A stretch of DNA of 32,000 nt, taken from Acaryochloris marina MBIC11017. Lineage in GTDB: Bacteria; Cyanobacteriota; Cyanobacteriia; Thermosynechococcales; Thermosynechococcaceae. How positions within the stretch are numbered: position 1 is the stretch's first letter; each line of letters begins with the position of its first letter. The position numbers and the translations under genes are program-made. Shown piece after piece: positions 10,603 through 31,134 of this stretch. The stretch lies in the NCBI RefSeq assembly GCF_000018105.1, contig NC_009925.1, forward strand, positions 1,890,001 through 1,922,000. The letters run 5' to 3'. The notes below the pieces were generated by a model. That model had not been told where the DNA came from, made no database searches, and was given only the letters and a program-made list of their open reading frames with translations.

Positions 10603-10903
10603 TGTTAAAGTATATCTATATCTTTGTTGAGTCGTCGAGACCACAACAACCATCCAAACGTCCACTTTACAATCCATCGTTTGGGAAAAACCTTGAGAGC
10701 TTCCCTAACTTCTCAAACAGCCTCTTAGTGAATTCAATATCACTAAGCAAAGTTTTTGTGGTTCAACAAGTACCTCAATAAGCCGTAAGATTCAATCATT
10801 CAAAATCTCTGAATAGATTTAGACCATAAATCTTGAAGTATCTAATTTATTCATAAAAAGAATAGATGAAATGCTTAATCAGGTTCAAACAGCATTCTTA
10901 CAT

Positions 10904-12124: not shown

Positions 12125-12148
12125 ATAACCCTAAGCAAGAATAAATGA

Positions 12149-12925: not shown

Positions 12926-12930
12926 AGGTC

Positions 12931-13701: not shown

Positions 13702-13706
13702 CTCCT

Positions 13707-15215: not shown

Positions 15216-15249
15216 GGGTTCGGCCTGATGATTCGGTCGACAGACTCAC

Positions 15250-17541: not shown

Positions 17542-17551
17542 AATCTGTATT

Positions 17552-18679: not shown

Positions 18680-19132
18680 TTCGTTCGTACTTTAGCTGCT
18701 ACTTCACCAGAACCCTTTGTTCAATTTTTAGAAATCCAACGGATGTGGAGGAATAGGCTCGACAATATCATGAGCTTGACGATACAACACTTCGTAAAAG
18801 GATACCTTAAACATTAGAACTCTTGCTTCATAAAGACTACAAAACCCCATTCAATAAGTAGCGCAGCTATTTCACTGGTCACCGCATGGGTTAACTACTT
18901 TGTGGACTTCAATCTCAATATTCATTGAGGAGAAGGAGGTAGTCATTCTAATTTTTTTTCAGCAATAGTCCCTCGCTTAAATCGTGAGGGGGAATAATGT
19001 TTGAAGATATTGGAAGTAAGTGAAAGTCTTGAGAAATTGGCTTAATTAGCCCACTTGCACCTCAGCAAGATCAGTATAGCGTGGCATTTTTCCCCTCGCC
19101 AGATAATTTAGAAAGTTTTTTACTATGATCGG

Positions 19133-20947
19133 TTATCGATAGTTCTGGGCTTGGGTTTCAAACATCGATGCATAGACCCCGTTGAGGTTCATCAACGTAT
19201 GATGATTACCTTCCTCAATCATGTGACCTTGTGACATCACATAGATGTAGTCAGCCATCTTAACCGTTGACAATCGGTGACTAATCAAAATAGCGGACTG
19301 ATCTTGAATGAGCTCTCGGAATTGTTGAAAAACCTCATATTCAGCTTTGGGGTCCATTGCACTGGTTGGCTCATCCAGAACAATCACTTGAGAATCCCTT
19401 AAGAAGGCACGAGCCAGAGCGATTTTTTGCCACTGGCCAATACTGAGTTCTTCTCCTTGATCAAACATCTTACCCAGAACGGTATCGTACCCTTGCGGTA
19501 AAGACTGGATGACTCGATCCGCTCCTGATAGTTGAGCCGCCGATCGAATCCGACGATCATCGGCTGGCCGCTCAATATTGCCTAACTGGATATTATCTCG
19601 GGCTGTGAAATGATATTTAGCATAGTCTTGAAAAATGACGCTGATATGGCTTTTTAGCTCAAGCTTACTAAAGCTTTTGAGATCGATGCCATCAATCGTG
19701 ATACTTCCCTCAGTGGGATCATATAGTCGACAAAGTAGTTTAATGAGTGTCGTTTTTCCAGAGCCATTCTCGCCCACCAAGGCAATAACTTGTCCGGGCT
19801 GGAGCTTGAGTGACACATTGTGAATCGCTTTCCGTTTGGTCGTAGCATATTGAAAGCTAACATTATTGAAAACCACTCCAGTAGCCAACGTTTCTGGGAA
19901 AGGCTGCGGGCGTTCGGGTTCCAAGACTTTGGACTCTATATCTAAAAATTCGTATAGATTCGCGAGGAACAAATTATCCTCGTAAAGCCCCGATAGACTT
20001 CGTAACAACCCCCTCAGACTGTTTTGACCTTTTTGCAACGCTTGATAATAGAGGACTAAGTCTCCCAACTTGAGAACGCCTGCCAACGTTTGCTGGACCA
20101 TATAGATAAAAATGGCAAAGACAAATAACCCTGCAATTACCTGAGCCCCAAAAAAGGCAAAGGATCGTTTAGAAACTATCCCTACTTTTTCCTTATAAAT
20201 AAGTTCTCGTAGCTGGGCATACCGCTGTCTGAAATGCTCTCCTAGGTTGAATAATCGAATCTCTTTGGCGAACAAATCACTGGTTTGTAACCACCCCAAA
20301 TACATTGCCTGCCGTTCTAGCTGAGTCCGACGGCGTTTCCAGTGGTACATTACCCCTGCAAATTTCATCCGCACCAATACAGTTGGAATTGCAGCCACAA
20401 ACAGAATTCCGACAATACCCCAATGCAGGGCCAACAATAATCCCAACATTGCTAGTAATGAAATTGAACTTTGCCCTGCTAAGGCCAACCGATCCAAGAT
20501 GCGGGGAGGCCGATAAGGCGCTTCTTGTTGGGCGCGCTGCAGAGCATCATAATATTGGGCATTTTCGTAATACTCTAAGTCAGCCGAAATCGATTTAGAG
20601 TGGATGATGCCCTGCATATAATCCGTGACTCGCTGAGCATGGGCAATGGTAACTAAATCTGATAGAGAGGCAAAGAGGGTCGTACTAATCGTCAAACAAG
20701 CGGCAACAACCAATAAAGGCACGATATCGTTGAGCGCGGCTGCTCGGTTCGAAAGTGCCAAACTAATCGTCACTTGATCGACAATTAGCTTAGTCATATA
20801 AATAGAAAATAAGGGTAGTATGCCCTGAATGATTACCAAGCCAATGCGTGCCAAAGTCCAGTTAGGACTGCTTTGCCAAACCAGTTTTAAAGCTGGGATG
20901 AAGTGCAAAGGGCGTTTAAATCTTGCTTTGATAAATCCAGTCAGCAT
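19133..20947 (-). CDS. ABC transporter, fused permease/ATPase half-transporter; candidate lasso-peptide exporter (D protein)
   Basis: 604-aa ORF with an N-terminal six-TM-type domain. Walker A GENGSGKTTL, signature LSIGQWQKIALARA, Walker B VIVLDEPTSAMD. It lies directly downstream of the precursor genes on the same strand. Confidence 0.85.
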   Translation of the reverse strand: MLTGFIKARFKRPLHFIPALKLVWQSSPNWTLARIGLVIIQGILPLFSIYMTKLIVDQVTISLALSNRAAALNDIVPLLVVAACLTISTTLFASLSDLVTIAHAQRVTDYMQGIIHSKSISADLEYYENAQYYDALQRAQQEAPYRPPRILDRLALAGQSSISLLAMLGLLLALHWGIVGILFVAAIPTVLVRMKFAGVMYHWKRRRTQLERQAMYLGWLQTSDLFAKEIRLFNLGEHFRQRYAQLRELIYKEKVGIVSKRSFAFFGAQVIAGLFVFAIFIYMVQQTLAGVLKLGDLVLYYQALQKGQNSLRGLLRSLSGLYEDNLFLANLYEFLDIESKVLEPERPQPFPETLATGVVFNNVSFQYATTKRKAIHNVSLKLQPGQVIALVGENGSGKTTLIKLLCRLYDPTEGSITIDGIDLKSFSKLELKSHISVIFQDYAKYHFTARDNIQLGNIERPADDRRIRSAAQLSGADRVIQSLPQGYDTVLGKMFDQGEELSIGQWQKIALARAFLRDSQVIVLDEPTSAMDPKAEYEVFQQFRELIQDQSAILISHRLSTVKMADYIYVMSQGHMIEEGNHHTLMNLNGVYASMFETQAQNYR

Positions 20948-21250
20948 AAATTGCCATTTGACAATGCGTAGTGCGAAACTATCCTAACCCTGTAAGCAAA
21001 GCTCAGCGAGGGAGAGGATCGATATAACCGCCCTTAAACAAAAGTCTGGGTTAAACGAATCTGCTATGCCGCTCATAAGTTCGAAACCTCAGAAAGACCA
21101 ACCGACAGATTAAAAAGGCGAAGTCGAGTTCACCATAACTCAGCCCAAAAAGACTGCATCACATAAGCTAGGAGTCTTTTAGCAAAGCTCAAATCGTTAA
21201 TATTTGGCATGCCCTACTATAGGAGGGTGCGATTTTTTCCGTTTTAGCTT

Positions 21251-21285
21251 AAACAAATAGAGCCAGCATTTGGAAGGCTGACTCT
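21251..21285 (-). terminator. Candidate intrinsic terminator/attenuator downstream of precursor A1
   Basis: The minus-strand RNA reads AGAGUCAGC-CUUCCAAAU-GCUGGCUCU. That is a 9-bp stem whose only non-Watson-Crick pair is a G.U in the sense transcript (it would be a C-A mismatch on the other strand). It is followed by AUUUGUUU and sits about 45 nt after the A1 stop. Confidence 0.45.
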
Positions 21286-21327
21286 ACTCGCTTCAATATT
21301 CAGTTGAACAATAACTGAAAAGGATGA

Positions 21328-21468
21328 CTATGACGTTACATCATCAATATCACCAACGGGAATTGTCCCGAAAGGCACATCTGTAGCATTCAATGACGGT
21401 GAATTCTTAGTCATATCTTCTACGCTGCCGTACACCTTCAATTGGGGTGCACCATAGGTTCTTTTCAT
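21328..21468 (-). CDS. Lasso-peptide precursor A1 (46 aa): MKRTYGAPQLKVYGSVEDMTKNSPSLNATDVPFGTIPVGDIDDVTS
   Basis: Hand translation; below the ORF-track size cut-off. Preceded by AAGGAG. The leader fits YxxPxLxxxGxxxxxTx (Y5,P8,L10,G14,T20). It lies between the cyclase and the ABC exporter. Compared with paralog A2, 36/46 residues are identical, and 17 of the identical residues use different synonymous codons. Confidence 0.85.
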   Translation of the reverse strand: MKRTYGAPQLKVYGSVEDMTKNSPSLNATDVPFGTIPVGDIDDVTS

Positions 21469-21550
21469 GGTCTTAGCTTACTCCTTACTTAATCTGTCGC
21501 TGTTTTAGCTTATGCAAGCATTTGCAAGTTAACAGCATCTAACTATAGTC

Positions 21551-21588
21551 AATTAGGTGTTTTACCCCCCAGGTCAGCTGTGAAACAA
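21551..21588 (-). promoter_or_regulatory. Conserved box upstream of A1 (sense strand TTGTTTCACAGCTGACCTGGGGGGTAAAACACCTAATT)
   Basis: Identical, apart from a 1-nt T indel, to 21888-21924 upstream of A2, while the surrounding non-coding sequence has diverged. Function unknown; it could be a promoter/operator or a 5' UTR element. Confidence 0.5.
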
Positions 21589-21652
21589 TCCACGCTGGAC
21601 CAGGACGCCCACATTCTAGCAACAATCAAAAATTAGTGACTGGATAAAATGA

Positions 21653-21793
21653 CTAGGATGTAATGTCGTCGATATCTCCAGGAGGAATGGTTCCAAAGGG
21701 CACATCAATGGCATTGATTGATGGCGCATTCTTCGTCATATCTTCTACGCTTCCGTAGGTTCTGAGTTGAGGTGCGTCATAAAATTTTTTCAT
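21653..21793 (-). CDS. Lasso-peptide precursor A2 (46 aa): MKKFYDAPQLRTYGSVEDMTKNAPSINAIDVPFGTIPPGDIDDITS
   Basis: Hand translation. Preceded by AAGGAG. Same leader motif and same architecture as A1, including the C-terminal Ser. Confidence 0.85.
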   Translation of the reverse strand: MKKFYDAPQLRTYGSVEDMTKNAPSINAIDVPFGTIPPGDIDDITS

Positions 21794-21887
21794 GGCTTTA
21801 GCTTGCTCCTTAAGTCATCTGCTTTTATCAGCTGTTCTGGTTTCCTTATATGGGTTGCCATACAAGTTGACAGCGTCTAATTAAATT

Positions 21888-21924
21888 AATTAGGTGTTTA
21901 CCCCCCAGGTCAGCTGTGAAACAA
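21888..21924 (-). promoter_or_regulatory. Conserved box upstream of A2 (second copy of the 21551-21588 box)
   Basis: See 21551-21588. It contains a CAGCTG palindrome and a G6 run. Confidence 0.5.
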
Positions 21925-22079
21925 GTTTCTAGCCGGACCTTGATACCGTTATTTGACATACTACCCAGTAGGCAAACTTGCCAAGCGGACATCAATTCAG
22001 CATACAAATCCAGTTAAGCTATTATAACTTCTCAAATATTTTGGGGACATTCCAATCCTTAAATATTCATTAGATTTGA

Positions 22080-24050
22080 TTACTGTAGAGTAGATTCGGC
22101 AAAATTGACGCCTAGATTGGCTTGTTGTAGCCAAAGAGTCAAATTAACGGCAATCCAAATCAACAGTGTATCGTTAGCTTCAGCCTCTCCCCTTTGCCAT
22201 CGCTGGACTAACTGAGTGAACTCGTGCATATCAATAAACGTCTCAATGGCATCGGGTGGATGATTGAGAACTTGATGAATTAGGTCCATACCGTACTTTT
22301 CTAGGGTATGGTCAAACGCTGTGCCCAAATTTCCTTTACCGGCACGCCATTGAATTTGAGGAGGAAGAATACCATCCAGTCCACGTCGGATAATTAATCG
22401 AGTCCAACCATTTTGCATCTTTTGTTCTTCTGGTAGAGAAACACAAAATTCCACTAACCGCTTATCCCAAAAGGGAAATCTCAATTCCACTTGGGAGGCA
22501 GCAGCTGTTCGATCCATCACTTCTAGGGTCGAAGAGACTAAGCCAGATGTAACGTCAACGATATGTTCGTGGCGCTGGGAAGGCTGTGCTCCAAAGCGCT
22601 GACGACGCAGGTGTTTATAACGCTGTAGCACGGATGCTCGATCAACAAAGTCTGGGGTGAGGGGGATGGCCCAGGGCCTGGCTGGAGTCACCTCGGACGT
22701 CTTCTGCTGCCCACGGAATTGCCAGCTTTTAACTTTACCTAAAATTTTGGTAATCTTTGTTTTTTTAAGGAGGGGATTGATGCCAAATTTACGGACATAG
22801 GACCGATACAAGGGCCATAAATCGTAACCAAAGCTTTGGCAAAACCCCCTCATCTCGCGCCATAACTTGAGCCACCGTCCTGCCTTGGCCAGAGTACGTA
22901 AATACCCAACACCATGAGATACCGCCTGATCACCATCAAAGCCATCCAATAACACCCTGACCGATTGGCTTTGAGCGATTTGATATAAGGCATGGGTTAA
23001 ATGGGCGTTACAGGCAAATAAGGGTTCGTCTTGGATAGCTAGCATGTGCTGATAATCGGTCCAGGGGCTGAGTTGATCGCCCTGTACATACTGAGGCTCG
23101 ATGGGTCGCTGATGAATCACGGCATTCATAAATTCCTGCTCATCAGATGCCGTAATTTCATTAAACACGGCGGAGAAAGTAGGGAATTTAGCGGTCTCTT
23201 GCGCCTCCTGTCTCAACTGGGCCGTCATACAGGTAATCGAGGAAGAATCAATTCCTCCACTTAACATTGTGCCGATGGAAAATGCACTTCTCAGGCGGCA
23301 GCGCACGGCTTCGGTGAAAATGGATTGAAACTGTTCCGCATAGGCTTGATCGGAGTCCAGCTGAAGTTCAAAGTCAGGATCGAGAGACCAATAGGCTGAG
23401 ATGTCCAAACTGTTTTGGCTTACTGTCATCCGATGAGCAGGAGGAAGACGAACAATCTGCTCATAAAAAGTCATTTCTGCATCAAATAGCATCAGGGTCA
23501 GATAGTCGGCGACCCTGGTTTCATTGAGGGATTTAGGCACTTCCAGCAAATGAAACAGCGCTTTCATTTCGCTGGCAAAGGCAAAGACTTGTTCGGAGGC
23601 ATAGTAAAAGAAGGGCTTGACTCCAAAATGATCGCGGGCGCAAAACAAATGCTGTTGAGTCTCATCCCAAAGGGCAAAGGCAAAATCACCTAAGAAATAT
23701 TCGGGGCATTGTTCGCCCCATTTTTCGTAGGCAGCAAGAATGAGGGCGCTATCGGTAATCACTGCTGAGGGAGACTCTTTCAGACCCAGCTGGGTCATTA
23801 GGTCCACACGGTTATCAATTCGGGCGTCTGCCGTCAAGATTAAAGTTTGGGAAGCGTTGCTAAGGGGTAGCGTTTCAAACCGGGATTCTGGGGTGGTCTG
23901 TAATAAACAATGGCCTAAGCCAACCCTATCTTGACTCCATTCATTGGTTCCATCCGGTCCTCGATGGGATAGAGATTGGACCATTTGGTGCAAATAATCG
24001 CTCCCCTCAGGATGAGGGTGAGGATAGACAAAGCCAGTAATTGCGCTCAT
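22080..24050 (-). CDS. Lasso-peptide cyclase (C protein), asparagine-synthetase B homolog
   Basis: 656-aa ORF. The N-terminus MSAITGF aligns with the AsnB MCGIxG but has Ser where the glutaminase nucleophile Cys is expected. PP-loop ATP-pyrophosphatase motif MLSGGIDSSS. The genomic context is B1/B2/precursors. Confidence 0.85.
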   Translation of the reverse strand: MSAITGFVYPHPHPEGSDYLHQMVQSLSHRGPDGTNEWSQDRVGLGHCLLQTTPESRFETLPLSNASQTLILTADARIDNRVDLMTQLGLKESPSAVITDSALILAAYEKWGEQCPEYFLGDFAFALWDETQQHLFCARDHFGVKPFFYYASEQVFAFASEMKALFHLLEVPKSLNETRVADYLTLMLFDAEMTFYEQIVRLPPAHRMTVSQNSLDISAYWSLDPDFELQLDSDQAYAEQFQSIFTEAVRCRLRSAFSIGTMLSGGIDSSSITCMTAQLRQEAQETAKFPTFSAVFNEITASDEQEFMNAVIHQRPIEPQYVQGDQLSPWTDYQHMLAIQDEPLFACNAHLTHALYQIAQSQSVRVLLDGFDGDQAVSHGVGYLRTLAKAGRWLKLWREMRGFCQSFGYDLWPLYRSYVRKFGINPLLKKTKITKILGKVKSWQFRGQQKTSEVTPARPWAIPLTPDFVDRASVLQRYKHLRRQRFGAQPSQRHEHIVDVTSGLVSSTLEVMDRTAAASQVELRFPFWDKRLVEFCVSLPEEQKMQNGWTRLIIRRGLDGILPPQIQWRAGKGNLGTAFDHTLEKYGMDLIHQVLNHPPDAIETFIDMHEFTQLVQRWQRGEAEANDTLLIWIAVNLTLWLQQANLGVNFAESTLQ

Positions 24051-24070
24051 GGGGGCAGAAGGGGCAAATG

Positions 24071-25288
24071 TTAGGAAGTAGAAGTGGGTTCAATCGCTTT
24101 AATCATCAGAAATCCCTCTTGAATCAAGTTTTGAGCTAAGGACAATCGTCCAGCATCGTTAATCAAACCACCAATGTCTTTAACAGCTAGATAGGGATGG
24201 TCAATCAGATCAGTCAGGGAGGTCGCTAGGAAAATAGGAAAGGTTAGACTTTTTTGATAGAAGTTCAAAACGATTTGAGTGGAATCTCTATCAACGGAGA
24301 AGAGAATATTGGGTCTGCGAGCAACGACAGAGTTGAGATTGAGCTGTGGCAGGTAAATCAGATCTTGGAATCGACCTTGGTCTTCTGATTTGCGATCGCA
24401 CAAAAATACCTTATGCTTCCGCTCTACCAGTTCTTCAGTCTTAACATTACTAATTAAGTACTGACTCAGGGTTTGAAACAACTCATAAAAAGCCTGCTGT
24501 TGCTCAGAACTGGAAAAACCGTGGGGAATCGCTTTCCGAAAGGCTGGGTCAGCCTGGGCGATGGTGACCAACTCCTCCAAGAGTTCATAGGCGAAGGTGG
24601 GATATAACCCTAGGGATGCATGCACAGAGGTGGTCTCCTGACTAGCCGCTTGATGGACTACCCCCCGAGGAATATAAAGCAAATCACCAGGCTGAAGCAT
24701 TACCGTTAATTCCGGCTCCGCCAGTTTATGGCGGCCAATACTTTGATCGCGGATGTGAGAGGGGAGTTCAACAGGAGAATGGTAGAGTTTCCATTCCTTT
24801 TCCCCCGTGATTTGGAGAATAAACACATCATGTTCATCGTAATGAGGGGCTAAGCCCTGGGCCTGGGGGGGGGTGATATAGATATTGGTTCGTAGCTTAA
24901 ACTTCAGCTCGCATTCTAGAGCACTGCAAAAATGTCTCAGCTTGGGAATTTTCTTATGAGCCCCATTGATAGTCAAGGTTAAGCCTTGATGCAACAGGCT
25001 ATAGAGCTTGTCGTTATTAATAAAATACTGTTGGGATTTAGAGTGGCGATCACACCAGTCTTCCAGACTGAGCTTATTACCCTGATCCACTAGGCGAAAG
25101 TTATTGTAATCCGCCAACAACGCTTTGTTTTGCAGCAGAAGATCGATGTCCTCTGGCTGTAAAACTGACCCATAAAATGAGGCATCATTCCTTGGCAAAT
25201 AGAGGGTTTTTGTTTCCCAATAGGTCTGGAAAAAATCCTCAATCGTGCAAGGAGAGATTAAACGGGCAAATTGAGACTCAACCTTCAT
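24071..25288 (-). CDS. JmjC/cupin_4-type (ribosomal-oxygenase YcfD/RoxA-like) Fe(II)/2OG oxygenase
   Basis: Facial triad context APHYDEHDVFILQITGEKEWKLY (HxD) and LLYIPRGVVHQA (distal His). The ORF track starts at TTG 25321; the ATG at 25288 (MKVESQ..) is preferred and overlaps the kinase stop by 11 nt. Confidence 0.75.
   Translation of the reverse strand: MKVESQFARLISPCTIEDFFQTYWETKTLYLPRNDASFYGSVLQPEDIDLLLQNKALLADYNNFRLVDQGNKLSLEDWCDRHSKSQQYFINNDKLYSLLHQGLTLTINGAHKKIPKLRHFCSALECELKFKLRTNIYITPPQAQGLAPHYDEHDVFILQITGEKEWKLYHSPVELPSHIRDQSIGRHKLAEPELTVMLQPGDLLYIPRGVVHQAASQETTSVHASLGLYPTFAYELLEELVTIAQADPAFRKAIPHGFSSSEQQQAFYELFQTLSQYLISNVKTEELVERKHKVFLCDRKSEDQGRFQDLIYLPQLNLNSVVARRPNILFSVDRDSTQIVLNFYQKSLTFPIFLATSLTDLIDHPYLAVKDIGGLINDAGRLSLAQNLIQEGFLMIKAIEPTSTS
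24392..24399. repeat. HIP1 octamer GCGATCGC
   Basis: Exact match read in the sequence, inside the lasso cluster. Confidence 0.95.
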
Positions 25289-26183
25289 GGGCCAGGATGT
25301 GATTTTCAACGAGGGTAGCAATGTCCGGTAGTAAGTCGAGGGAGGCTGGCCGTAAGAGACGCAAAAGTGGCACTTGTTGAGCCAGGAGCATCAGTTGCTT
25401 AAAATGGTTGGCTCCTCGCTCCTGCAATAAAGTTTGCTCAAAGCGGGTGACATAGGAGTTTTGCATCAAATGTTGAATAATCTCCTGGGGCGGTAACGGC
25501 TTAATGGCGACTTCCTCCCCCTGTCCCAGCACAAAAATATATCTCAAGGGCAGAATGTCAGACATAAAGCCAGAAGAGAGTTGATGATTGCGCTTTTCTA
25601 AGCGGGCCCCTAGTCGTGGTAAATCCTCGGGCTGCTTGCCAATACAGGTGACCGCATCGGGCCACAGCTTGATTTGTGGAAAGGCAGGCTGTACCTGAAT
25701 TTGATGGCGTTGGACCTCTAGGGCTACCACATCATCCGCAATCAAGCTATGGCCACGATCATGCAAAGTCGCTGCCATCGTGGATTTGCCCCATCGCTTT
25801 TGACCAATAAAGGCCACCGCTTCTCCTTCCAACGCCACGGCACTGGCATGGAGGACCAAAAATCCGCGTTGATGCAGCACAACTCCCATGACCGCACCCA
25901 GAATAAAGAGTCGGAGACGATCCTCATCGAGATCAATCTCTAGATCAATCAGGACATCCTGGCCTTCCTGAATCAAAAACGTACCGACTCCTTGCCAATA
26001 TAAATACATTCCTGAATCGTTATTTTGATAGCAATGCAGGGTGTCTCCCGTCTGCAAAGGACTATCGGTAATGGCATCAAAATGAATCCAGACATCCGCA
26101 TCCGTTGCCAGGGTGGGAATCAGTTCTGGCAGTTTAATTTCAGACTGAAGGGTCAAGCCATAGGCTGAATAAAAGTGGGACAT
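25278..26183 (-). CDS. HPr-kinase/phosphorylase-like P-loop kinase (lasso precursor Ser kinase candidate)
   Basis: 301-aa ORF. P-loop FIGQKRWGKSTMAATL preceded by LHASAVALEGEAVAF and followed by LIADDVV, the arrangement of the HprK C-terminal domain. Sits in the lasso-cluster context. Confidence 0.75.
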   Translation of the reverse strand: MSHFYSAYGLTLQSEIKLPELIPTLATDADVWIHFDAITDSPLQTGDTLHCYQNNDSGMYLYWQGVGTFLIQEGQDVLIDLEIDLDEDRLRLFILGAVMGVVLHQRGFLVLHASAVALEGEAVAFIGQKRWGKSTMAATLHDRGHSLIADDVVALEVQRHQIQVQPAFPQIKLWPDAVTCIGKQPEDLPRLGARLEKRNHQLSSGFMSDILPLRYIFVLGQGEEVAIKPLPPQEIIQHLMQNSYVTRFEQTLLQERGANHFKQLMLLAQQVPLLRLLRPASLDLLPDIATLVENHILAHEG

Positions 26184-26312
26184 AGCAATTAGCGGCTATC
26201 CAGACTCAAAGAATAACGTTTTTAAGGGATTTTTGCCTTCAGCAGTTAGGGTGACATATGGGAGCAAAGTAGCAGATCATCAGCGGGACAAACCTGCAGA
26301 TTGAAACCACCC

Positions 26313-27236
26313 TTACCGTTGGTCCCGAGGTAGTAATTTCTTGAGTTTGGATCTTAGTTTTTTGAGAAAGGGTTGAGTGGGTTGAGGCTCGTTTGCCGTA
26401 AACAGTTTATAAATTAATGCTTCGAACAGGGGATTTGGCGCCATAGAGTCCGGATGAATGATGGCATCTAAATTCAAATTAAAGGTTGGCAACTCATTTA
26501 AACCTTGGTTCCCTTGGGTATGACTGCCTTGAGTGCCAATATTGGAAATCAGATTGACCTTCGGCACAACGGTGAGACCGTCCTGAGCGAGACAAGAATA
26601 AAACCATGGAATATCCCAAACCTGTTGGTTCTGATAGGCCCAGTCAAATAATTGGGTCACCCAATCCGTGAGGGCCTGTTGCTCAAAAAATTGGGGTTGG
26701 GTTTGCTTGAACTGAGGCCACCCCGTCATCGTGAGGTCGTTGCCTTGCCACGCTCTGCGCCAAGAGGCCCATCCCCAAGACACAAAAAATTTAGAGAAGA
26801 CATAGGTCTGGGGAATAGAAAGGGTATCTCGCAAAAAATTACTCCCCGAGATGGTCTTGACTTGGAATTGATGACGGTACTGAGCTAACATCCCTTGGCA
26901 AAACGGGAAAAAGCTGGGATGGGGAAGACAGTCATCTTCTAAAATGATCGCTTCTTCCACCTGAGAGAACACCCAGTCCAACCCCTGGACATTACAAGAC
27001 CGTCCCCCCAGGTTCGATTCAGCAAAACGGGTGAACACCTCGCACTCCCAATCCACTTGATCAACAATCGCCCTTGCTTGCTGGCATAAATCATCATCCT
27101 CGGGCACATCAGCTCTCGGGCCATCCGCAACGATAAACAAGGTTGACGGTTTGACTTGGGCAATCGCTGCAAATACCTGATTCGAATATTGCGGACGATT
27201 GAAAATATGAAGGGCAACGGGAGTGGAAAAAGGCAT
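26313..27236 (-). CDS. GT-A-fold glycosyltransferase (GNT-I / 'HlpA-like' type)
   Basis: 307-aa ORF with VALHIFNRPQY...LFIVADGPR, AIILEDDCLPHPSFFPF (an EDD motif in DxD position) and WGWASWRRAW. From memory this pattern matches bacterial GNT-I-like glycosyltransferases. No search was run. Confidence 0.55.
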   Translation of the reverse strand: MPFSTPVALHIFNRPQYSNQVFAAIAQVKPSTLFIVADGPRADVPEDDDLCQQARAIVDQVDWECEVFTRFAESNLGGRSCNVQGLDWVFSQVEEAIILEDDCLPHPSFFPFCQGMLAQYRHQFQVKTISGSNFLRDTLSIPQTYVFSKFFVSWGWASWRRAWQGNDLTMTGWPQFKQTQPQFFEQQALTDWVTQLFDWAYQNQQVWDIPWFYSCLAQDGLTVVPKVNLISNIGTQGSHTQGNQGLNELPTFNLNLDAIIHPDSMAPNPLFEALIYKLFTANEPQPTQPFLKKLRSKLKKLLPRDQR

Positions 27237-27250
27237 GGGAGAAGCAAAAT

Positions 27251-27859
27251 TCAGACAAACCAGCTGACAATGGTGAATCGTTCACCATGGGTGACGGGTT
27301 TAACTTCATGCCAGAGATCGGAACGGAAAGCGATCAGCTGGCCTTGTTCCGGTTCTAAGGGAAAGCCATAGTTTTGACCACGAGCATCATTGAGTAACCC
27401 ATAGAGCGCTAAGGCTCCCCCCCCAAAGGTCTGAGGACTAGGCTCAGCGGACATGCCGTTGAGAAAAATAATTAAAGACACTAATCGATTTTTTTCAAAC
27501 TTGGAGCCCGGTAGGCTCGGATCGATCACATCTCGATGCAGGCCAAAAAAGTCGCCCACTTGATAGCGGTAGCAGGAGGGAGGTTCAAGGGCATGGAGTT
27601 GAACCTCAAAATGAGTTTCTAATCGCGGTTTGATGGCAATTAAGCGCTCACGAATCCCCTTGATCGTGGTTGGGCTGATTTGCAACTGGCCTGTTTTCCG
27701 TCGACTATCGTCGGTCACAGCCTCCCCGTATCGGGTGAGACGAGCAGGCTCACAGGGGCAGGTCTGTGCTTCCGTGAGGTAGGACTCACAGAATTGTGGA
27801 TCTAAGAAGCCAGGGTCTACAAATACCCCCAAGCGTTCAAAAAAAGCAGCGCTAGGCAT
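27251..27859 (-). CDS. Prolyl-4-hydroxylase-like Fe(II)/2OG oxygenase (2OG-FeII_Oxy_3 type)
   Basis: 202-aa ORF with YQVGDFFGLHRDV (HxD), SLIIFLN...GGALAL, LIAFRSDLWHEVKPV (distal His) and GERFTIVSWF (2OG-binding Arg). Confidence 0.75.
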   Translation of the reverse strand: MPSAAFFERLGVFVDPGFLDPQFCESYLTEAQTCPCEPARLTRYGEAVTDDSRRKTGQLQISPTTIKGIRERLIAIKPRLETHFEVQLHALEPPSCYRYQVGDFFGLHRDVIDPSLPGSKFEKNRLVSLIIFLNGMSAEPSPQTFGGGALALYGLLNDARGQNYGFPLEPEQGQLIAFRSDLWHEVKPVTHGERFTIVSWFV

Positions 27860-27929
27860 TGCTCCGAACCTTTTATTCAGTGATAAAAAAATATTTAATA
27901 TTCTAGGTCAAGTCCCCAGAGGATGGGAC

Positions 27930-28388
27930 TTAGATCTTGGACTCAAACGATGGCATCGGCGTAAAGCGAGATAAGTCCTTCACAAAACCCATGATCACTT
28001 GCCCTTGTAGTTCAACCCAGGCATGGGCTTCAAGGGAATGATCCTCTGCTTTCGCGACCCCAATTTTTAGCTCGGGTTCATAGCCTCGTCGGCAAATTAA
28101 GACTTGCGTAACGAGGGCTCGGGCTAAACATTTCACGTGTCCTGGCATAAATCGGCTACTAGTGTTCACTGCCCAGATCACTTTTCCGACAGTTCTACGA
28201 CTAATCTTTCTGAGGGTAGGGGTTTGATAGTAGGCAGGGGGGTTGTGAAAATTGGCCAGCCATTTCTGCAGGATTTTGAAAGGCAGCAACCACAATCCCA
28301 ATCGAACCAAACCCAACAAAACGTAGGTTTTGATCAAGAGAGTGCGATCGCAACTTTGCAACCGCAAAAATTTAAGCAGTGGCGACAT
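27930..28388 (-). CDS. Lasso-peptide leader peptidase B2 (transglutaminase-like Cys protease)
   Basis: Motifs HVKCLARALVTQVLICRRGYEPELKIGV (catalytic Cys) and LEAHAWVELQGQVI (His). The ATG at 28388 is preferred over TTG at 28400. It overlaps the B1 stop by 17 nt. Confidence 0.85.
   Translation of the reverse strand: MSPLLKFLRLQSCDRTLLIKTYVLLGLVRLGLWLLPFKILQKWLANFHNPPAYYQTPTLRKISRRTVGKVIWAVNTSSRFMPGHVKCLARALVTQVLICRRGYEPELKIGVAKAEDHSLEAHAWVELQGQVIMGFVKDLSRFTPMPSFESKI
28344..28351. repeat. HIP1 octamer GCGATCGC
   Basis: Exact match read in the sequence, inside the lasso cluster. Confidence 0.95.
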
Positions 28389-28677
28389 CTTTGATCTCAA
28401 TCAAATCTGATTCAACCAGTTCATTCAGCAACCTGAGGACATCCTGTTCACACTGGTCCGACTCAACTTCGTACTGGTCCAGAATTTGGTCGCAGATGTC
28501 TTTAACCGATCGAGGTTGCTGAAGTAAATTCCAAATACTTGCACCCACTTCATTCAAACCGAAGTACATTCCTGTCTTCAGGTTGAGAATTACTGATTCC
28601 CCTGCTAAGTCAGATGAGACTTGCTCTGGGGTCGCAACAACCGTTGTATTCGTTGAAATAGTGGTAGTCAAACTCAT
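28372..28677 (-). CDS. Lasso-peptide B1 protein (PqqD-like RiPP recognition element)
   Basis: 101-aa ORF with LAGESVILNLKTGMYFGLNEVGASIWNLL...ICDQILDQYEV....CEQDVLRLLNELVESDLI, the PqqD-family pattern. Confidence 0.85.
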   Translation of the reverse strand: MSLTTTISTNTTVVATPEQVSSDLAGESVILNLKTGMYFGLNEVGASIWNLLQQPRSVKDICDQILDQYEVESDQCEQDVLRLLNELVESDLIEIKDVATA

Positions 28678-28865
28678 AACCCTTTAAAACACTCAAATAA
28701 TGCAGATTTCGTATAAGCTAGCACAGATATTTTATATTTATCCGTAGGAATTAAAACATTTAAAGATTTCCCTGAGCGGAATTGTAGCCCTGTTTTTCGC
28801 TAGGTAGCCTGGATCTATTTTAAGCGGCATTGATGATACCATTAGCCAGACTGTATTTCCGCGAC

Positions 28866-30092
28866 TTACGGATTAGGATCACAGAATTTTTCAACGCAGC
28901 GCACAAAAATCTCCACACCCATAGCTAAGGCAGTCTCATCAAAATCGAACTGGGGATGGTGATGGGGATAGGCTAAGCCTCGATCGGCGTTGGCTGAGCC
29001 TAAAAAGAAGTAACAGCCTGGCACTTCTTGTAAAAAGAAGGACATGTCTTCTCCACCCATGGTTTGGCAATTGGGAACAACGCCTGTCGGTGTTTCAATA
29101 ACTTCAGTACTGACGGAGCGAATCAAATCTGAGATCGCAGCATCGTTAATCACCGGTGGATACAGCCGCCAATAGTTGAGGTCGTAGGTGGCTCCCCAGC
29201 TTTGGCAAATCCCTGTGAGAATATCCTGCATCCGTGGCTCAATCAGATGGGCCAATTCCGGGTCAAAGTAGCGCACCGTGCCGCTCATAAAGCTGGAGTC
29301 GGCAATCACATTAGATGCCGTGCCCGCATGGAGTTGCCCGATGGTCACCACTGCGGAATTAAGGGGATTGACATGGCGAGCCACAATCGCTTGCAGGGCA
29401 TTAACGATTTGAGCACTAATCACCACTGCATCAGTGGTTTGATGGGGCATAGCTCCATGGCCCCCCTTGCCCTGAATCTTGCATTCAAATAAATCCACGG
29501 CAGCCATCAGTGGACCCGATTTTATGCCCACCGTACCGAGGGGAAGGTTATTCCATAAGTGGAGGCCAATAATGGCGTCCACTTGTGGGTTTTGCAGAAC
29601 CCCTGCTTCAATCATGGGCTTGGCCCCACCGGGAGACTCTTCCGCAGGCTGGAAAATGATCTTGACCGTACCGGCAAAGTCCTGGCGATGCTGAGATAAG
29701 TAGCGAGCGGTTCCTAGGGCAATGGCCGTATGCCCATCATGACCACAGGCATGCATCACTCCATCATGGCGTGACCGATAGGAAACCGTATTCTCTTCCT
29801 GAATGGGTAAGGCATCCATATCTGCCCGAATGGCTAACACTGGCCCCGGTTGCTCTCCAATGATGGTAGCCATAATGCCCGTTTCAGCAATGGCAGTTTG
29901 ATGCTCAATGCCCCATTCTGTTAAGCGTTGGGCTACAAATTCAGCAGTGAGATGTTCTTTGAATCCAAGTTCTGGATATTGATGCAGATGCCGCCGCCAA
30001 GACACCAAGTCTAGGTGCTGGATATCTGGACGAATAGTGGTGGCAGCATGAGAAGGCGAAGAAACCATAATGCTCTTACTCAAGCAAGACAA
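28866..30092 (-). CDS. M20D-family amidohydrolase (N-acyl-amino-acid amidohydrolase / hippurate-hydrolase-like)
   Basis: 408-aa ORF with WRRHLHQYPELGFKE, MHACGHDGH and IIFQPAEE. The listed start is TTG; an alternative ATG is at 30068. Confidence 0.8.
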   Translation of the reverse strand: MSCLSKSIMVSSPSHAATTIRPDIQHLDLVSWRRHLHQYPELGFKEHLTAEFVAQRLTEWGIEHQTAIAETGIMATIIGEQPGPVLAIRADMDALPIQEENTVSYRSRHDGVMHACGHDGHTAIALGTARYLSQHRQDFAGTVKIIFQPAEESPGGAKPMIEAGVLQNPQVDAIIGLHLWNNLPLGTVGIKSGPLMAAVDLFECKIQGKGGHGAMPHQTTDAVVISAQIVNALQAIVARHVNPLNSAVVTIGQLHAGTASNVIADSSFMSGTVRYFDPELAHLIEPRMQDILTGICQSWGATYDLNYWRLYPPVINDAAISDLIRSVSTEVIETPTGVVPNCQTMGGEDMSFFLQEVPGCYFFLGSANADRGLAYPHHHPQFDFDETALAMGVEIFVRCVEKFCDPNP

Positions 30093-30231
30093 GGATTGAT
30101 TACCTTTTTAGAATACAATTCCCAGATTTTTCACAAACAGTCAGCAAAATGTTACGTAGCAGTCTGACAGAGAATCCTAGTTGGAAAACAATATCGATAG
30201 TCTCAGTCATCGACGAAGGACAGAATCACGT

Positions 30232-31134
30232 ATGAGTCTAGAACGCAACAATTCCTTGAAAAATAGCGCAACGCTTCCAAAAGTACTTTTACACGTCGGT
30301 CGTCATAAGTCTGGTACGTCTGCCATACAAGCTTTTCTAGCGCTCAATGACGAGCTGCTTGCAGAAGAATATGGTGTACTTTATCCGCAAATCGGACGAG
30401 ATCCAAAAGGCAACTACCATCACCCTCTATTTCGTCCTTTGGTTGAGAATATGGTGCCTTTGGATCAAGCTAAACTCCACAAGATTCAACAAGAAGCACA
30501 GGATCGAAATTGTCACACTATCTTGTTGTCTTCAGAAATGCTAAGTCGGATCAAATTATCGGAAGATCACCTGAAAGGCGTCCGAGATGCATTTCAAGGC
30601 CATGAAATACGCGTCATTCTGTACTTTCGCCAACAAGATTCTTTCTTGAGATCAACCTATGCCCATCGGATCAAGATTGGTTTTGTCGCAGCTCCGACAA
30701 AAATTCAAGATTTAGATCCAGCAATGGATTACTTTGAATTTGCGAACCGTTACGCATCCATTTTTGGTAAGCATGCTTTAACGATAAGAAGCTATGACGA
30801 AGATACAGCTAAAGGCTTATTTGAAAGCTTTCTGTCAATTATGGATATACCCTTATCGGACGCTTTTTCACGCCCAACCTCTCGTGTCAACCAGCGGTTA
30901 CCGTGGCGTTATATTGAGTTGATTCGGCACGCAAATCGCTGGCCATGGACCCGCAAGCTGGCCATGCATCGGTATGTCCATCGCACTGCAATCAACCTTT
31001 TGCGTCAATTCCCCGACTTTATGGATAGCCCCGAACCCCTCTCGCCAGAACAAGGTCATCAGATTGTCATAAGCCAACAAACAAGTAATAACCAGCTCGC
31101 CCGTGAATTTCTGAATAGAGAGAGCCTATTTTAA
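30232..31134 (+). CDS. Sulfotransferase-like protein (tentative)
   Basis: The only clear plus-strand gene. LLHVGRHKSGTSAIQ resembles the PAPS 5'-phosphosulfate-binding loop (K-x-G-T-[ST]), followed by ILLSSEML. The ATG at 30232 is preferred to TTG at 30181. The call rests on motif memory only. Confidence 0.4.
   Translation: MSLERNNSLKNSATLPKVLLHVGRHKSGTSAIQAFLALNDELLAEEYGVLYPQIGRDPKGNYHHPLFRPLVENMVPLDQAKLHKIQQEAQDRNCHTILLSSEMLSRIKLSEDHLKGVRDAFQGHEIRVILYFRQQDSFLRSTYAHRIKIGFVAAPTKIQDLDPAMDYFEFANRYASIFGKHALTIRSYDEDTAKGLFESFLSIMDIPLSDAFSRPTSRVNQRLPWRYIELIRHANRWPWTRKLAMHRYVHRTAINLLRQFPDFMDSPEPLSPEQGHQIVISQQTSNNQLAREFLNRESLF

What the first reader, a model, noticed from the sequence alone, without database searches (positions are those of the whole stretch)
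24071..27859. Two unrelated Fe(II)/2OG oxygenases plus a GT-A glycosyltransferase; P4H-GT adjacency hints at hydroxylation-dependent glycosylation
A P4H-like oxygenase (HRD...H, 27251-27859) sits 14 nt upstream of a GNT-I-like GT-A glycosyltransferase (EDD motif, 26313-27236). A JmjC/cupin_4 oxygenase (HYD...H, 24071-25288) is coupled to the kinase. The cores offer matching substrates: conserved Pro3, Pro11 and Pro16 for a prolyl hydroxylase, and Asn1, Asn6, Asp9, Asp19, Asp21 and Asp22 for a JmjC enzyme. JmjC enzymes such as FIH hydroxylate Asn/Asp, and the core has no Arg, Lys or His. Prolyl hydroxylation followed by GlcNAc transfer onto hydroxyproline is established for eukaryotic Skp1 (PhyA/Gnt1). 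An analogous Hyp-O-glycosylated lasso peptide would be new RiPP chemistry. Alternatively, the GT could act on the phospho-Ser or on a hydroxy-Asp/Asn.
Basis: inference. Interest (0 to 1): 0.8.

Follow-up and report, generated by a model that had tools for sequence, protein, structure and literature searches.

The report
Lasso peptide tailoring genes: two hydroxylases, glycosyltransferase
These genes are the decorating enzymes of a lasso-peptide gene cluster in the cyanobacterium Acaryochloris marina: two iron-dependent hydroxylases that recur in lasso clusters of many other bacteria, plus a sugar-adding enzyme found only in this lineage, none of them studied experimentally as far as I could find.

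Summary
Window 24071-27859 (minus strand; Acaryochloris marina MBIC11017, AM1_1916-1919) holds four intact genes. They are a ribosomal-oxygenase-type JmjC oxygenase, an HPr-kinase-like kinase, a GnT-I-like GT-A glycosyltransferase and a prolyl-hydroxylase-type 2OG oxygenase (P4H). All sit inside a split-B lasso cluster with two 46-aa precursors.

- JmjC homologs at 44-53% identity lie in kinase-type lasso clusters of five other cyanobacterial genera. More distant homologs do so in several other phyla.
- P4H homologs at 37-52% identity lie next to the kinase in lasso clusters in 11 of the 13 soil contigs with at least 4 kb of flank on both sides. None of these has a GT or a JmjC.

The GT is different. 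Lasso-linked copies form one Acaryochloris-like clade at 55% identity or more. All four homologs inspected at 51% or less sit in polysaccharide loci.

P4H occurs without the GT, but the GT was never seen without P4H directly upstream. This fits hydroxyproline glycosylation but does not show it. Ser/Thr and phospho-Ser are equally open as acceptors, and the GT resembles GnT-I (GT13), not Skp1 Gnt1 (GT60).

Verdict: a new variant of the tailored lasso cluster. The Hyp-sugar idea stays a hypothesis at about 0.27.

The parts
27251..27859 (-). P4H/PHD-type Fe(II)/2OG oxygenase (AM1_1919); proposed prolyl hydroxylase acting on the lasso precursor
   Evidence: PF13640, E 2.3e-15. HxD...H plus Arg are invariant. 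The model (pLDDT 92.7) best matches P. putida PPHD 4iw3 (TM 0.73), Dictyostelium PhyA 6t8m, algal P4H and PHD2. Homologs at 37-52% identity lie next to the kinase in lasso clusters.
26313..27236 (-). GnT-I-like GT-A glycosyltransferase (AM1_1918) with an EDD motif; accessory gene restricted to this lineage
   Evidence: No Pfam hit of its own, but weak GNT-I hits in the family. The fold matches GnT-I, POMGnT1 and GnT-II. EDD is invariant. Lasso-linked copies form one clade. Homologs at 51% identity or less sit in polysaccharide loci.
25278..26183 (-). HPr-kinase-like lasso peptide kinase; expected to phosphorylate the C-terminal Ser
   Evidence: PF07475, E 5e-7, below the curated cut-off. NCBIfam HprK-related hits. 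PF27840 ScmC and Hpr_kinase_C appear on the orthologs. The target is assigned by analogy with paeninodin and pseudomycoidin (PMC9266682).
24071..25288 (-). JmjC_2 (ribosomal-oxygenase-like) Fe(II)/2OG oxygenase (AM1_1916); its start overlaps the kinase stop by 11 nt; proposed Asp beta-hydroxylase
   Evidence: PF08007, E 6.7e-32. PDB sequence hits: MINA53 2e-31, NO66 1e-28, YxbC, YcfD. H149/D151/H212 are invariant. Homologs lie in kinase-type lasso clusters of other cyanobacteria and other phyla.
22080..24050 (-). Lasso cyclase C (AM1_1915)
   Evidence: NCBIfam NF033535 lass_lactam_cya, 905.7 bits against a cut-off of 525; Asn_synthase.
21653..21793 (-). Precursor A1, core NAPSINAIDVPFGTIPPGDIDDITS
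   Evidence: NF033528 lasso_cyano, 32 bits against a cut-off of 33, so just below it; leader motif YxxPxLx3Gx5Tx.
21328..21468 (-). Precursor A2, core NSPSLNATDVPFGTIPVGDIDDVTS
   Evidence: NF033528, 33 bits, at the cut-off; leader motif.
19133..20947 (-). ABC exporter D
   Evidence: ABC_tran, E 1e-33; conserved at this position in all orthologous loci.
27930..28400 (-). Leader peptidase B2
   Evidence: NF033537 lasso_biosyn_B2, 118.6 bits; Transglut_core3.
28372..28677 (-). RRE chaperone B1 (PqqD-like)
   Evidence: NF033536 lasso_PqqD_Bac, 87.5 bits; PqqD.

Best explanation
The region is the tailoring block of a split-B, kinase-type lasso peptide cluster in Acaryochloris marina MBIC11017. The gene order is B1-B2-P4H-GT-kinase-JmjC-C-A1-A2-D.

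Shown here:
- All catalytic motifs are intact.
- Each of the two oxygenase families is, on its own, a recurrent companion of the HPr-kinase-like gene in lasso clusters of many lineages.
- The tailoring genes are modular. Acaryochloris relatives exist with all four genes, with P4H but no GT, and with neither P4H nor GT.

Inferred:
- The PHD/P4H-type enzyme hydroxylates one of the conserved prolines. It probably acts on the linear, leader-bearing precursor presented by the PqqD-type RRE.
- The ribosomal-oxygenase-type JmjC enzyme beta-hydroxylates an Asp in the acidic C-terminal tail (DIDD-x-TS).
- The kinase phosphorylates the C-terminal Ser, as in paeninodin.
- The GnT-I-like GT was recruited once from a polysaccharide-GT family. 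It adds a hexose or HexNAc from a UDP-sugar to the peptide.

The GT's acceptor is unresolved. Hydroxyproline made by the adjacent P4H is the single best-supported candidate (about 0.27). Direct Ser/Thr O-glycosylation is about equally likely (about 0.3), and the phospho-Ser less so (about 0.15).
For: Lasso core machinery and precursors.

JmjC:
- 8 of the 9 genome loci with a homolog at 40% identity or more carry the kinase plus B1/B2/C. These include Calothrix, Nostoc, Dapis, Coleofasciculus and Chlorogloeopsis.
- More distant JmjC+kinase(+lasso) loci occur in Acidobacteriota, Verrucomicrobiota, Heliobacteriaceae and Flavobacteriaceae MAGs.

P4H:
- 37 of 80 metagenome loci have lasso or kinase genes. 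So do 11 of the 13 with at least 4 kb of flank on both sides.
- The kinase usually ends 7-100 nt upstream. None of these loci has a GT or a JmjC.
- The closest non-Acaryochloris homolog (52% identity) lies in a B2-P4H-C-A-kinase-ABC-NTP_transf_5 cluster whose core is QGGGNSIDVPFGTPVTPDTTINDVTS.
- Soil clusters have a second PqqD gene directly upstream of the P4H.

Folds: P4H matches PPHD, PhyA and PHD2. The GT matches GnT-I, POMGnT1 and GnT-II.

Modularity: L009 has P4H, then 136 nt, then the kinase, with no GT. L010 has B2, then 33 nt, then the kinase, with neither gene. L169/L170 (GT 55% identical) again read B1-B2-P4H-GT.

Residue statistics: Pro is in 13/13 P4H-associated cores (12.5% of residues) against 7/10 JmjC-only cores (6.2%). 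Asp is in 10/10 JmjC-only cores, each with at least one Asp beyond the presumed ring position (read from the core sequences).

Precedents: CanE hydroxylates a lasso precursor with help from B1. PsmK/PsmN and IgtG phosphorylate or glycosylate lasso peptides (PMC9266682, PMC11912497).
Against: - No product data exist, and the target residues rest on correlation over about 23 predicted cores whose boundaries are themselves inferred.
- Pro follows the ring Asp in JmjC-only cores too, so it does not discriminate sites.
- Asp is needed for ring closure in any case.
- PF13640 also contains enzymes of unknown or non-prolyl function (PiuC/YbiX, PolD).
- Characterised ribosomal-oxygenase-type JmjC enzymes hydroxylate His or Arg, not Asp.
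- GT13-like enzymes normally glycosylate sugars, not peptides, and the cluster abuts an EPS locus.
- One JmjC homolog at 42% identity (L025) is not in a lasso context.
Confidence: 0.6

Rival explanations
1. One reading: obligatory two-step Hyp-O-glycosylation. P4H makes 4-hydroxyproline, and the adjacent GT transfers a sugar onto that hydroxyl, by analogy with Skp1 PhyA/Gnt1.
For: - The P4H-GT gap is 14 nt. The P4H-GT order is conserved in three diverged lineages: the window/L001 group, L004/L007 (GT 64-65% identical) and L169/L170 (GT 55%).
- P4H exists without the GT (L009, L171, all soil loci). The GT was never seen without P4H.
- The P4H fold matches Dictyostelium PhyA 6t8m at E 1e-9.
Against: - The P4H family functions widely without any GT.
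- The GT's closest folds are GT13/GT16 inverting enzymes with sugar acceptors, not GT60.
- The cores offer two or three Ser, two or three Thr and a phosphate as ready acceptors.
- The known lasso glycosylations are on Ser (IgtG) and on phospho-Ser (PsmN) (PMC11912497).
- Only about five independent architectures were seen, all within one family.
Confidence: 0.27
2. The GT glycosylates the peptide independently of both oxygenases, either on a Ser/Thr side chain (as IgtG does) or on the C-terminal phospho-Ser (the role PsmN plays in other kinase-type clusters).
For: - The kinase-type relative L171 carries an NTP_transf_5 (PsmN-like) gene, while the Acaryochloris clusters carry the GT instead.
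- The GT lies directly upstream of the kinase, with a 129-nt gap.
- Precedents are described in PMC11912497 and PMC9266682.
- Ser4, Thr14, Thr24 and Ser25 are conserved in all Acaryochloris cores.
Against: This does not explain why the GT is always placed just after P4H and never occurs without it. L009 and L010 lack both the GT and NTP_transf_5, so decoration of the phosphate is not obligatory.
Confidence: 0.4
3. The GT is not a lasso tailoring enzyme. It is a polysaccharide GT, belonging to the adjacent Wzz/GT4 EPS locus, that happens to be lodged inside the operon.
For: - All four inspected homologs at 44-51% identity sit in polysaccharide clusters with a flippase, GT4, GT2 and FkbM methyltransferases. 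One is a cyanobacterial locus next to a Wzz/BY-kinase gene.
- The window cluster is directly followed by GT4 and Wzz/BY-kinase genes at 15250-18679.
- Relatives without the GT keep all the other genes.
Against: - The GT lies between P4H and the kinase, on the same strand, 14 nt from P4H.
- Lasso-linked GTs form a separate clade. They keep this exact position in lineages whose upstream flanks differ.
- The catalytic EDD motif is intact.
Confidence: 0.12
4. The oxygenases act on cellular proteins (ribosomal protein or EF-Tu hydroxylation, as YcfD and PPHD do) and are only neighbours of the lasso genes.
For: The closest solved relatives are ribosomal oxygenases (MINA53, NO66, YcfD) and the EF-Tu prolyl hydroxylase PPHD.
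Against: Both families show repeated, cross-phylum linkage to lasso B1/B2/C and kinase genes, often with overlapping or near-abutting ORFs. They are gained and lost together with the cluster rather than being universally present.
Confidence: 0.04

Closest known systems
Paeninodin and pseudomycoidin kinase-type lasso clusters (PadeK/PsmK HPr-kinase-like; PsmN nucleotidyltransferase)
   Same: Split B1/B2, an HPr-kinase-like gene, a core ending in Ser and an ABC exporter. The relative L171 even carries an NTP_transf_5 gene.
   Different: These clusters contain no oxygenases and no GT-A. Sugar is added to the phosphate by a nucleotidyltransferase homolog, not by a Leloir GT-A (PMC9266682, PMC11912497).
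CanE, the Fe/2OG beta-hydroxylase of canucin A
   Same: A Fe/2OG enzyme encoded in a lasso cluster. It hydroxylates an Asp of the linear precursor with help from the B1 RRE (PMC9266682). This is the mechanistic template for both oxygenases here.
   Different: No CanE sequence was available to compare, so homology was not tested. Here there are two different DSBH families (ribosomal-oxygenase-type JmjC and PHD/P4H-type) in one cluster, and the proposed Asp is not C-terminal.
IgtG and the davasins (Ser-polyglycosylated lasso peptides)
   Same: A dedicated GT inside a lasso cluster that glycosylates the peptide (PMC11912497).
   Different: IgtG was assayed in microsomes and acts iteratively on the mature lasso. 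It is the only GT of its kind in a lasso cluster. The GT here is a soluble-looking GnT-I-like GT-A of a different lineage.
Skp1 modification in Dictyostelium and Toxoplasma (PhyA prolyl 4-hydroxylase followed by Gnt1 GlcNAc transferase)
   Same: A PHD-type P4H paired with a GT. The P4H model matches PhyA 6t8m at E 1e-9.
   Different: Gnt1 is CAZy GT60 (from my own knowledge). The GT here is closest to GT13/GT16. The substrate is a RiPP, not a folded protein. No dependence between the two steps has been shown.
Ribosomal oxygenases YcfD/RoxA, MINA53 and NO66 (PF08007)
   Same: The JmjC_2 domain with an HxD...H triad, with E values of 2e-31 to 4e-9 to these structures. These enzymes perform C3 (beta) hydroxylation of protein residues.
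   Different: Their known substrates are Arg or His of ribosomal proteins. The cores here have no Arg, Lys or His, and the gene context is a RiPP cluster.
GnT-I (MGAT1), POMGnT1 and GnT-II
   Same: The GT-A fold and an EDD metal/nucleotide motif. These are the best structural matches.
   Different: TM-scores are only about 0.5 at 13-15% identity. The window protein does not reach any Pfam threshold. Those enzymes add GlcNAc to mannose, not to a peptide side chain.
BpmG and PbsQ, the JmjC/cupin proteins in biphenomycin-type RiPP clusters
   Same: A JmjC-type hydroxylase assigned to side-chain hydroxylation in a RiPP pathway (PMC12257519).
   Different: They belong to a different RiPP class. No sequence comparison was made here.

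Membership tests
Lasso peptide biosynthetic gene cluster | Asn-synthetase-like macrolactam cyclase (C) | tested here: met
   NF033535, 905.7 bits against a cut-off of 525.
Lasso peptide biosynthetic gene cluster | Leader peptidase B2 (transglutaminase-like) and PqqD-type RRE B1 | tested here: met
   NF033537 at 118.6 bits and NF033536 at 87.5 bits, both above their cut-offs.
Lasso peptide biosynthetic gene cluster | A short precursor with the YxxPxLx3Gx5Tx leader and an Asp/Glu at core position 7-9 | tested here: met
   Two 46-aa ORFs have the motif and Asp9. NF033528 scores 33 and 32 bits against a cut-off of 33.
Prolyl-4-hydroxylase / PHD-type 2OG oxygenases (PF13640) | HxD...H iron triad and a basic residue that binds 2OG | tested here: met
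   H108, D110, H184 and R194 are invariant in 22 sequences.
Prolyl-4-hydroxylase / PHD-type 2OG oxygenases (PF13640) | Profile and fold similarity to solved prolyl hydroxylases | tested here: met
   PF13640 at 57.8 bits against a cut-off of 27. Foldseek gives PPHD 4iw3 (E 6e-12, TM 0.73), PhyA, CrP4H and PHD2.
Prolyl-4-hydroxylase / PHD-type 2OG oxygenases (PF13640) | Peptidyl-proline as substrate | not testable with these tools
   The evidence is only correlative: Pro is present in 13/13 P4H-associated cores.
JmjC ribosomal oxygenases (PF08007) | JmjC_2 domain with an HxD...H triad | tested here: met
   110 bits against a cut-off of 22. H149, D151 and H212 are invariant. MINA53 matches at E 2e-31.
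JmjC ribosomal oxygenases (PF08007) | An Arg or His residue of a ribosomal protein as substrate | tested here: not met
   The genes are embedded in lasso clusters across phyla. The Acaryochloris cores contain no Arg, Lys or His. So the enzyme works like a ribosomal oxygenase but is not one functionally.
GT13 / GnT-I family (PF03071) | A match to the family profile above threshold | tested here: not met
   The window protein has no PF03071 hit. 14 of 27 relatives give weak hits, the best at E 6e-6.
GT13 / GnT-I family (PF03071) | GT-A fold with an EDD (DxD-type) motif | tested here: met
   The model has pLDDT 88. The best hits are 1fo8/1foa at E 3e-10 and TM about 0.5. E100-D101-D102 is invariant.
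Skp1-type Hyp glycosylation (PhyA + Gnt1) | The GT belongs to the GT60 polypeptide HexNAc-transferase lineage | tested here: not met
   The top structural matches are GT13/GT16 and then GT2. ppGalNAc-T2 appears only at rank 25, with E 5e-5. Which CAZy families are related to GT60 rests on my own knowledge.
Skp1-type Hyp glycosylation (PhyA + Gnt1) | Glycosylation depends on prior prolyl hydroxylation | not testable with these tools
   Only gene order and presence/absence are available. The GT is never seen without P4H, while P4H is often seen without the GT.
PsmN-type decoration of phospho-Ser | An NTP_transf_5 nucleotidyltransferase gene in the cluster | tested here: not met
   No such domain is present in the window cluster. 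It is present in the related locus L171.
CanE-type lasso hydroxylase | Sequence homology to CanE | not tested

The most novel reading that the evidence does not exclude
The Acaryochloris peptides would be triply or quadruply tailored lassos: hydroxyproline carrying an O-linked sugar installed by a GnT-I-like enzyme, a beta-hydroxy-Asp made by a ribosomal-oxygenase-type JmjC enzyme, and a phospho-Ser. That would be the first bacterial and first RiPP example of Hyp-O-glycosylation. It would also be a peptide-directed use of the GT13-like fold, which evolved independently of the eukaryotic Skp1 and plant Hyp-glycosylation systems.
Probability: 0.22. Interest if true: 0.85.

Novelty: new variant of a known kind. 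Interest (0 to 1): 0.6.

Why it matters
Lasso peptides are stable scaffolds of pharmaceutical interest, and few tailoring reactions on them are known. This locus points to two uncharacterised hydroxylase families, one PHD/P4H-type and one ribosomal-oxygenase-type JmjC. Each is widespread in kinase-type lasso clusters. Characterising them would add peptide prolyl and (probably) aspartyl hydroxylation to the lasso toolbox.

It would also show a non-ribosomal, non-chromatin role for bacterial JmjC enzymes. The Acaryochloris relatives form a natural knock-out series: all four genes, no GT, and neither GT nor P4H. That makes the question of whether the sugar sits on hydroxyproline directly testable.

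In the papers I could search, no report describes these enzyme families in lasso biosynthesis or any characterised cyanobacterial lasso peptide. That search misses most subscription journals.

Tried and rejected
- Promoter and terminator scan of 18600-30200: counts were at shuffle level, so it gave no information on operon structure.
- Profile search of the GT family against PDB sequences: no meaningful hit. A fold search was needed instead.
- Locating the hydroxylation or glycosylation site by comparing Acaryochloris cores with and without P4H/GT. Only one P4H/GT-less precursor was available (L010: N6 to S, F12 to V, different loop), which is too few to decide.
- Looking for B1/B2 remnants upstream of P4H in L004: none found.
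- A first precursor regex missed the second cyanobacterial subfamily and the distant phyla. A looser scan recovered candidates for L012, L013, L015, L018, L039 and L026, but none convincing for L014, L016, L028 or L034.
- Literature: the two key papers (Zhu et al. 2016 JBC; Tietz et al. 2017) are not held. Searches for lasso with JmjC, cupin, prolyl, hydroxyproline, Acaryochloris, or HPr kinase plus dioxygenase found nothing on these enzymes.
- I rejected the idea that the downstream GT4 (17552-18679) is part of the lasso pathway. It is also retained next to the GT-less L010 cluster, travels with the Wzz/BY-kinase gene, and is more conserved (97%) than the lasso genes.
- The protein-representatives search, the viral collections and the phage, plasmid and E. 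coli collections were not used. They could not add genomic context.

Full report
**1. What is in the window**

The stretch 19133-28677 is a single-strand (minus) lasso peptide cluster. The gene order is:
- B1 (28372-28677, PqqD)
- B2 (27930-28400, transglutaminase-like)
- a 2OG-FeII_Oxy_3 oxygenase, called P4H here (27251-27859)
- a 307-aa protein with no Pfam hit, called GT here (26313-27236)
- an HPr-kinase-like protein (25278-26183)
- a JmjC_2 protein (24071-25288)
- the cyclase (22080-24050)
- two 46-aa precursors (21653-21793 and 21328-21468)
- an ABC exporter (19133-20947)

NCBIfam recognises the cyclase as the cyanobacterial lasso cyclase (905.7 bits). It recognises B1 and B2 as lasso proteins. 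The precursors score at or just below the cut-off of 'lasso_cyano'.

Exact-sequence look-up identifies the source as Acaryochloris marina MBIC11017, genes AM1_1915 to AM1_1919.

The leader follows the canonical YxxPxLx3Gx5Tx pattern. The 14-nt P4H-GT gap and the 11-nt kinase/JmjC overlap are also correct.

**2. The three enzymes of the finding**

P4H:
- PF13640 matches at E 2.3e-15.
- H108, D110, H184 and R194 are invariant in 22 homologs.
- A profile search of PDB sequences finds PKHD-type hydroxylases and algal, viral and bacterial prolyl 4-hydroxylases.
- The AlphaFold model (pLDDT 92.7) is closest to Pseudomonas PPHD (4iw3, TM 0.73). Next come Dictyostelium PhyA, Chlamydomonas P4H, PHD2 and OGFOD1.

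JmjC:
- PF08007 matches at E 6.7e-32.
- PDB sequence hits are MINA53 at 2e-31, NO66 at 1e-28, then YxbC and YcfD.
- H149, D151 and H212 are invariant.
- The two oxygenases have no significant pairwise similarity.

GT:
- It has no Pfam hit of its own. 14 of 27 family members give weak GNT-I (PF03071) hits.
- E100-D101-D102 is invariant.
- The model (pLDDT 88) matches GnT-I best (E 3e-10, TM about 0.5), then POMGnT1 and GnT-II.

One caveat matters. 'GnT-I-like' means GT13-like. That is a different lineage from the Skp1 enzyme also called Gnt1, which is GT60 (from my own knowledge).

**3. Are these fortuitous neighbours? JmjC**

A scan of one genome per species with a JmjC alignment returned 80 loci. 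I screened them by tblastn with the window's cluster proteins.
- Of the 9 loci with 40% identity or more, 8 carry the kinase and B1/B2/C. They come from Acaryochloris, Calothrix, Nostoc, Dapis, Coleofasciculus and Chlorogloeopsis.
- More distant JmjC+kinase(+lasso) loci occur in Pyrinomonadaceae, Bryobacteraceae, Verrucomicrobiota, Heliobacteriaceae and Flavobacteriaceae MAGs.
- One homolog at 42% identity (L025) is not in a lasso context.
- Most homologs at about 30% identity are not in a lasso context either.

**4. Are these fortuitous neighbours? P4H**

A metagenome scan with a P4H alignment returned 80 loci at 36-47% identity.
- 37 of them carry kinase and/or lasso genes, although many contigs are very short.
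- So do 19 of the 24 with at least 2 kb of flank on both sides, and 11 of the 13 with at least 4 kb.
- None has the GT or a JmjC.
- The kinase usually ends 7-100 nt before the P4H.
- In the soil clusters L116 and L129, a second PqqD gene lies directly upstream of the P4H (L116's is Pfam-confirmed; L129's is a close homolog by sequence). These clusters also carry several methyltransferases.
- The nearest non-Acaryochloris P4H (52% identity) lies in a B2-P4H-C-A-kinase-ABC-NTP_transf_5 cluster. Its core, QGGGNSIDVPFGTPVTPDTTINDVTS, clearly belongs to the same peptide family.

Each oxygenase family is therefore a recurrent lasso tailoring companion of the kinase in its own right.

**5. The GT behaves differently**

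About 7,900 homologs exist.
- Those at 55-95% identity that were inspected (P0004, P0007, P0008, P0009) all sit in lasso clusters directly after a P4H. They form one clade.
- All four inspected at 44-51% identity sit in polysaccharide loci with a flippase, GT4, GT2 and FkbM-type methyltransferases. One is a Calothrix locus next to a Wzz/BY-kinase gene.
- The window cluster itself is followed by GT4 and Wzz/BY-kinase genes.

The simplest reading is a single recruitment of a polysaccharide-type GT-A into an existing P4H-containing lasso operon.

**6. Modularity within Acaryochloris**

Four architectures exist:
- B1-B2-P4H-GT-K-JmjC-C-A-A-D (the window and L001-L003)
- P4H-GT-K-JmjC-C-A-D, with no B1/B2 within 10 kb (L004, L005, L007)
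- P4H-K-JmjC-C, with only 136 nt where the GT would be (L009)
- B1-B2-K-JmjC-C-A-D, with 33 nt between B2 and the kinase (L010)

A further lineage with a GT 55% identical again reads B1-B2-P4H-GT. So P4H occurs without the GT, and the GT was never seen without P4H. This is the pattern expected if the GT needs the P4H product. It rests on about five architectures in one family, so I treat it as a lead only.

**7. Which residues are modified?**

I collected 13 cores from P4H-containing clusters and 10 from JmjC-only clusters.
- Pro is the only residue present in all 13 P4H-associated cores, at 12.5% of residues.
- In JmjC-only cores Pro makes up 6.2% of residues, and three cores lack it entirely. 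Pro therefore cannot be the JmjC target.
- All 10 JmjC-only cores contain Asp. Reading the core sequences, each has at least one Asp beyond the presumed ring position, typically in an acidic C-terminal tail.
- The motifs D-V-P-x-G-T and D-[VI]-[TA]-S are shared by P4H-only, JmjC-only and double clusters, so they do not discriminate between the enzymes.

My inference is that P4H hydroxylates a Pro and JmjC beta-hydroxylates a tail Asp. Ribosomal oxygenases perform C3 hydroxylation, and CanE provides the lasso precedent for beta-hydroxy-Asp made on the linear precursor with help from B1 (PMC9266682). The PqqD gene next to the soil P4Hs points to the same substrate form. None of this is demonstrated.

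**8. The GT acceptor**

My estimates for the candidates are:
- Hyp, about 0.27
- Ser/Thr, about 0.3
- phospho-Ser, about 0.15
- not the peptide at all, i.e. the EPS pathway, about 0.12

The evidence for and against each is set out under the rival explanations.

**9. What is known**

Reviews and primary papers describe several lasso modifications: phosphorylation, phosphate-linked hexoses (PsmN), Ser polyglycosylation (IgtG), beta-hydroxy-Asp (CanE), hydroxy-Trp, methylation, acetylation, citrullination, epimerisation and others (PMC9266682, PMC8498205, PMC13352647, PMC11912497).

My full-text searches found no report of a JmjC, a PHD/P4H-type enzyme or a GT13-like GT in lasso biosynthesis. They found no hydroxyproline in a natural lasso peptide. 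They also found no characterised cyanobacterial lasso peptide. The library lacks most subscription journals, and two key papers could not be read. Absence of a report is therefore not proof of novelty.

**10. Verdict**

The solid result is that two uncharacterised oxygenase families are genuine, widespread, kinase-linked lasso tailoring enzymes. Here they are combined with a lineage-specific GT-A. This is a new variant of a known kind of system. Hyp-O-glycosylation remains an attractive hypothesis that can be tested cleanly.

Noticed in passing
L004, L005 and L007 (Acaryochloris-like contigs), about 8700-17650: An intact P4H-GT-kinase-JmjC-cyclase-precursor-ABC block with no B1/B2 within 10 kb and no remnant upstream of P4H. 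The leader peptidase and RRE must be encoded elsewhere, or the cluster works differently.
   Followed up: partly
L116 8090-10612; L129 8967-11431: Soil P4H-type lasso clusters L116 and L129 have a second PqqD gene directly upstream of the P4H (Pfam-checked in L116 only). They also have a weak 2OG-FeII_Oxy_2-like ORF of about 240 aa with an HxD motif. L116 carries a Methyltransf_24 and L129 an FkbM methyltransferase.
   Followed up: partly
L116 12689-13855; L133 10915-12168; L141 10574-11719: A PRMT-like methyltransferase lies downstream of the soil P4H-type lasso clusters. The L116 copy was checked against Pfam (PrmA, PRMT_C); the L133 and L141 copies are judged similar by eye.
   Followed up: partly
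L116, L128, L129 and L133 precursors: If cleavage follows the usual Thr(-2) rule, the first Asp of the core is at position 10 or 11, outside the known 7-9 ring sizes. Either the cleavage site is shifted or the rings are unusually large.
   Followed up: no
L012 8213-8416 and 9566-9823; L013 5349-5618; L015 9122-9322 and 9474-9728: A second cyanobacterial JmjC+kinase lasso subfamily has very long cores (33-59 aa) rich in Gly, Ser, Asn and Asp. They end in Asp or Asn rather than Ser, which raises the question of what the kinase phosphorylates there. One possibility is a hydroxyl made by the JmjC enzyme.
   Followed up: no
window 25278-25288; soil loci L112, L115, L118, L121, L144, L145: Both oxygenase families are tightly coupled to the kinase gene. 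The overlap is 11 nt in the window, and the gaps are 7-100 nt between tblastn matches in the soil loci. This hints at a functional or physical link between hydroxylation and phosphorylation.
   Followed up: partly
window 15250-18679: GT4 and Wzz/BY-kinase (EPS) genes lie directly downstream of the ABC exporter. They are conserved next to the cluster in all Acaryochloris relatives, including the GT-less L010. I judged them not to be part of the lasso pathway.
   Followed up: partly
window 30181-31134 (+): A 317-aa ORF with no Pfam or NCBIfam hit that is absent from the syntenic Acaryochloris 'Moss Beach' locus. By eye, its N-terminus has a GTS-containing P-loop-like stretch of the kind seen in sulfotransferases; this was not tested.
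   Followed up: no
window 28866-30092 (-): An M20 peptidase/amidohydrolase gene lies 188 nt upstream of B1 on the same strand. It is syntenic in L001-L003 but absent from L004, L007 and L010, so it is probably unrelated to the cluster.
   Followed up: partly
L012 3601-3855 (-): An 84-aa Gly/Tyr-rich small ORF lies just upstream of B1 in the Nostoc sp. CHAB 5844 lasso locus. Its nature is unknown.
   Followed up: no
L025 10001-11221: A JmjC homolog at 42% identity in a Nostoc MAG has no lasso or kinase genes within 10 kb. Its neighbours look like a nitrilase and a MATE-type transporter by eye; this was not checked against Pfam. The family is therefore not exclusively lasso-linked.
   Followed up: partly
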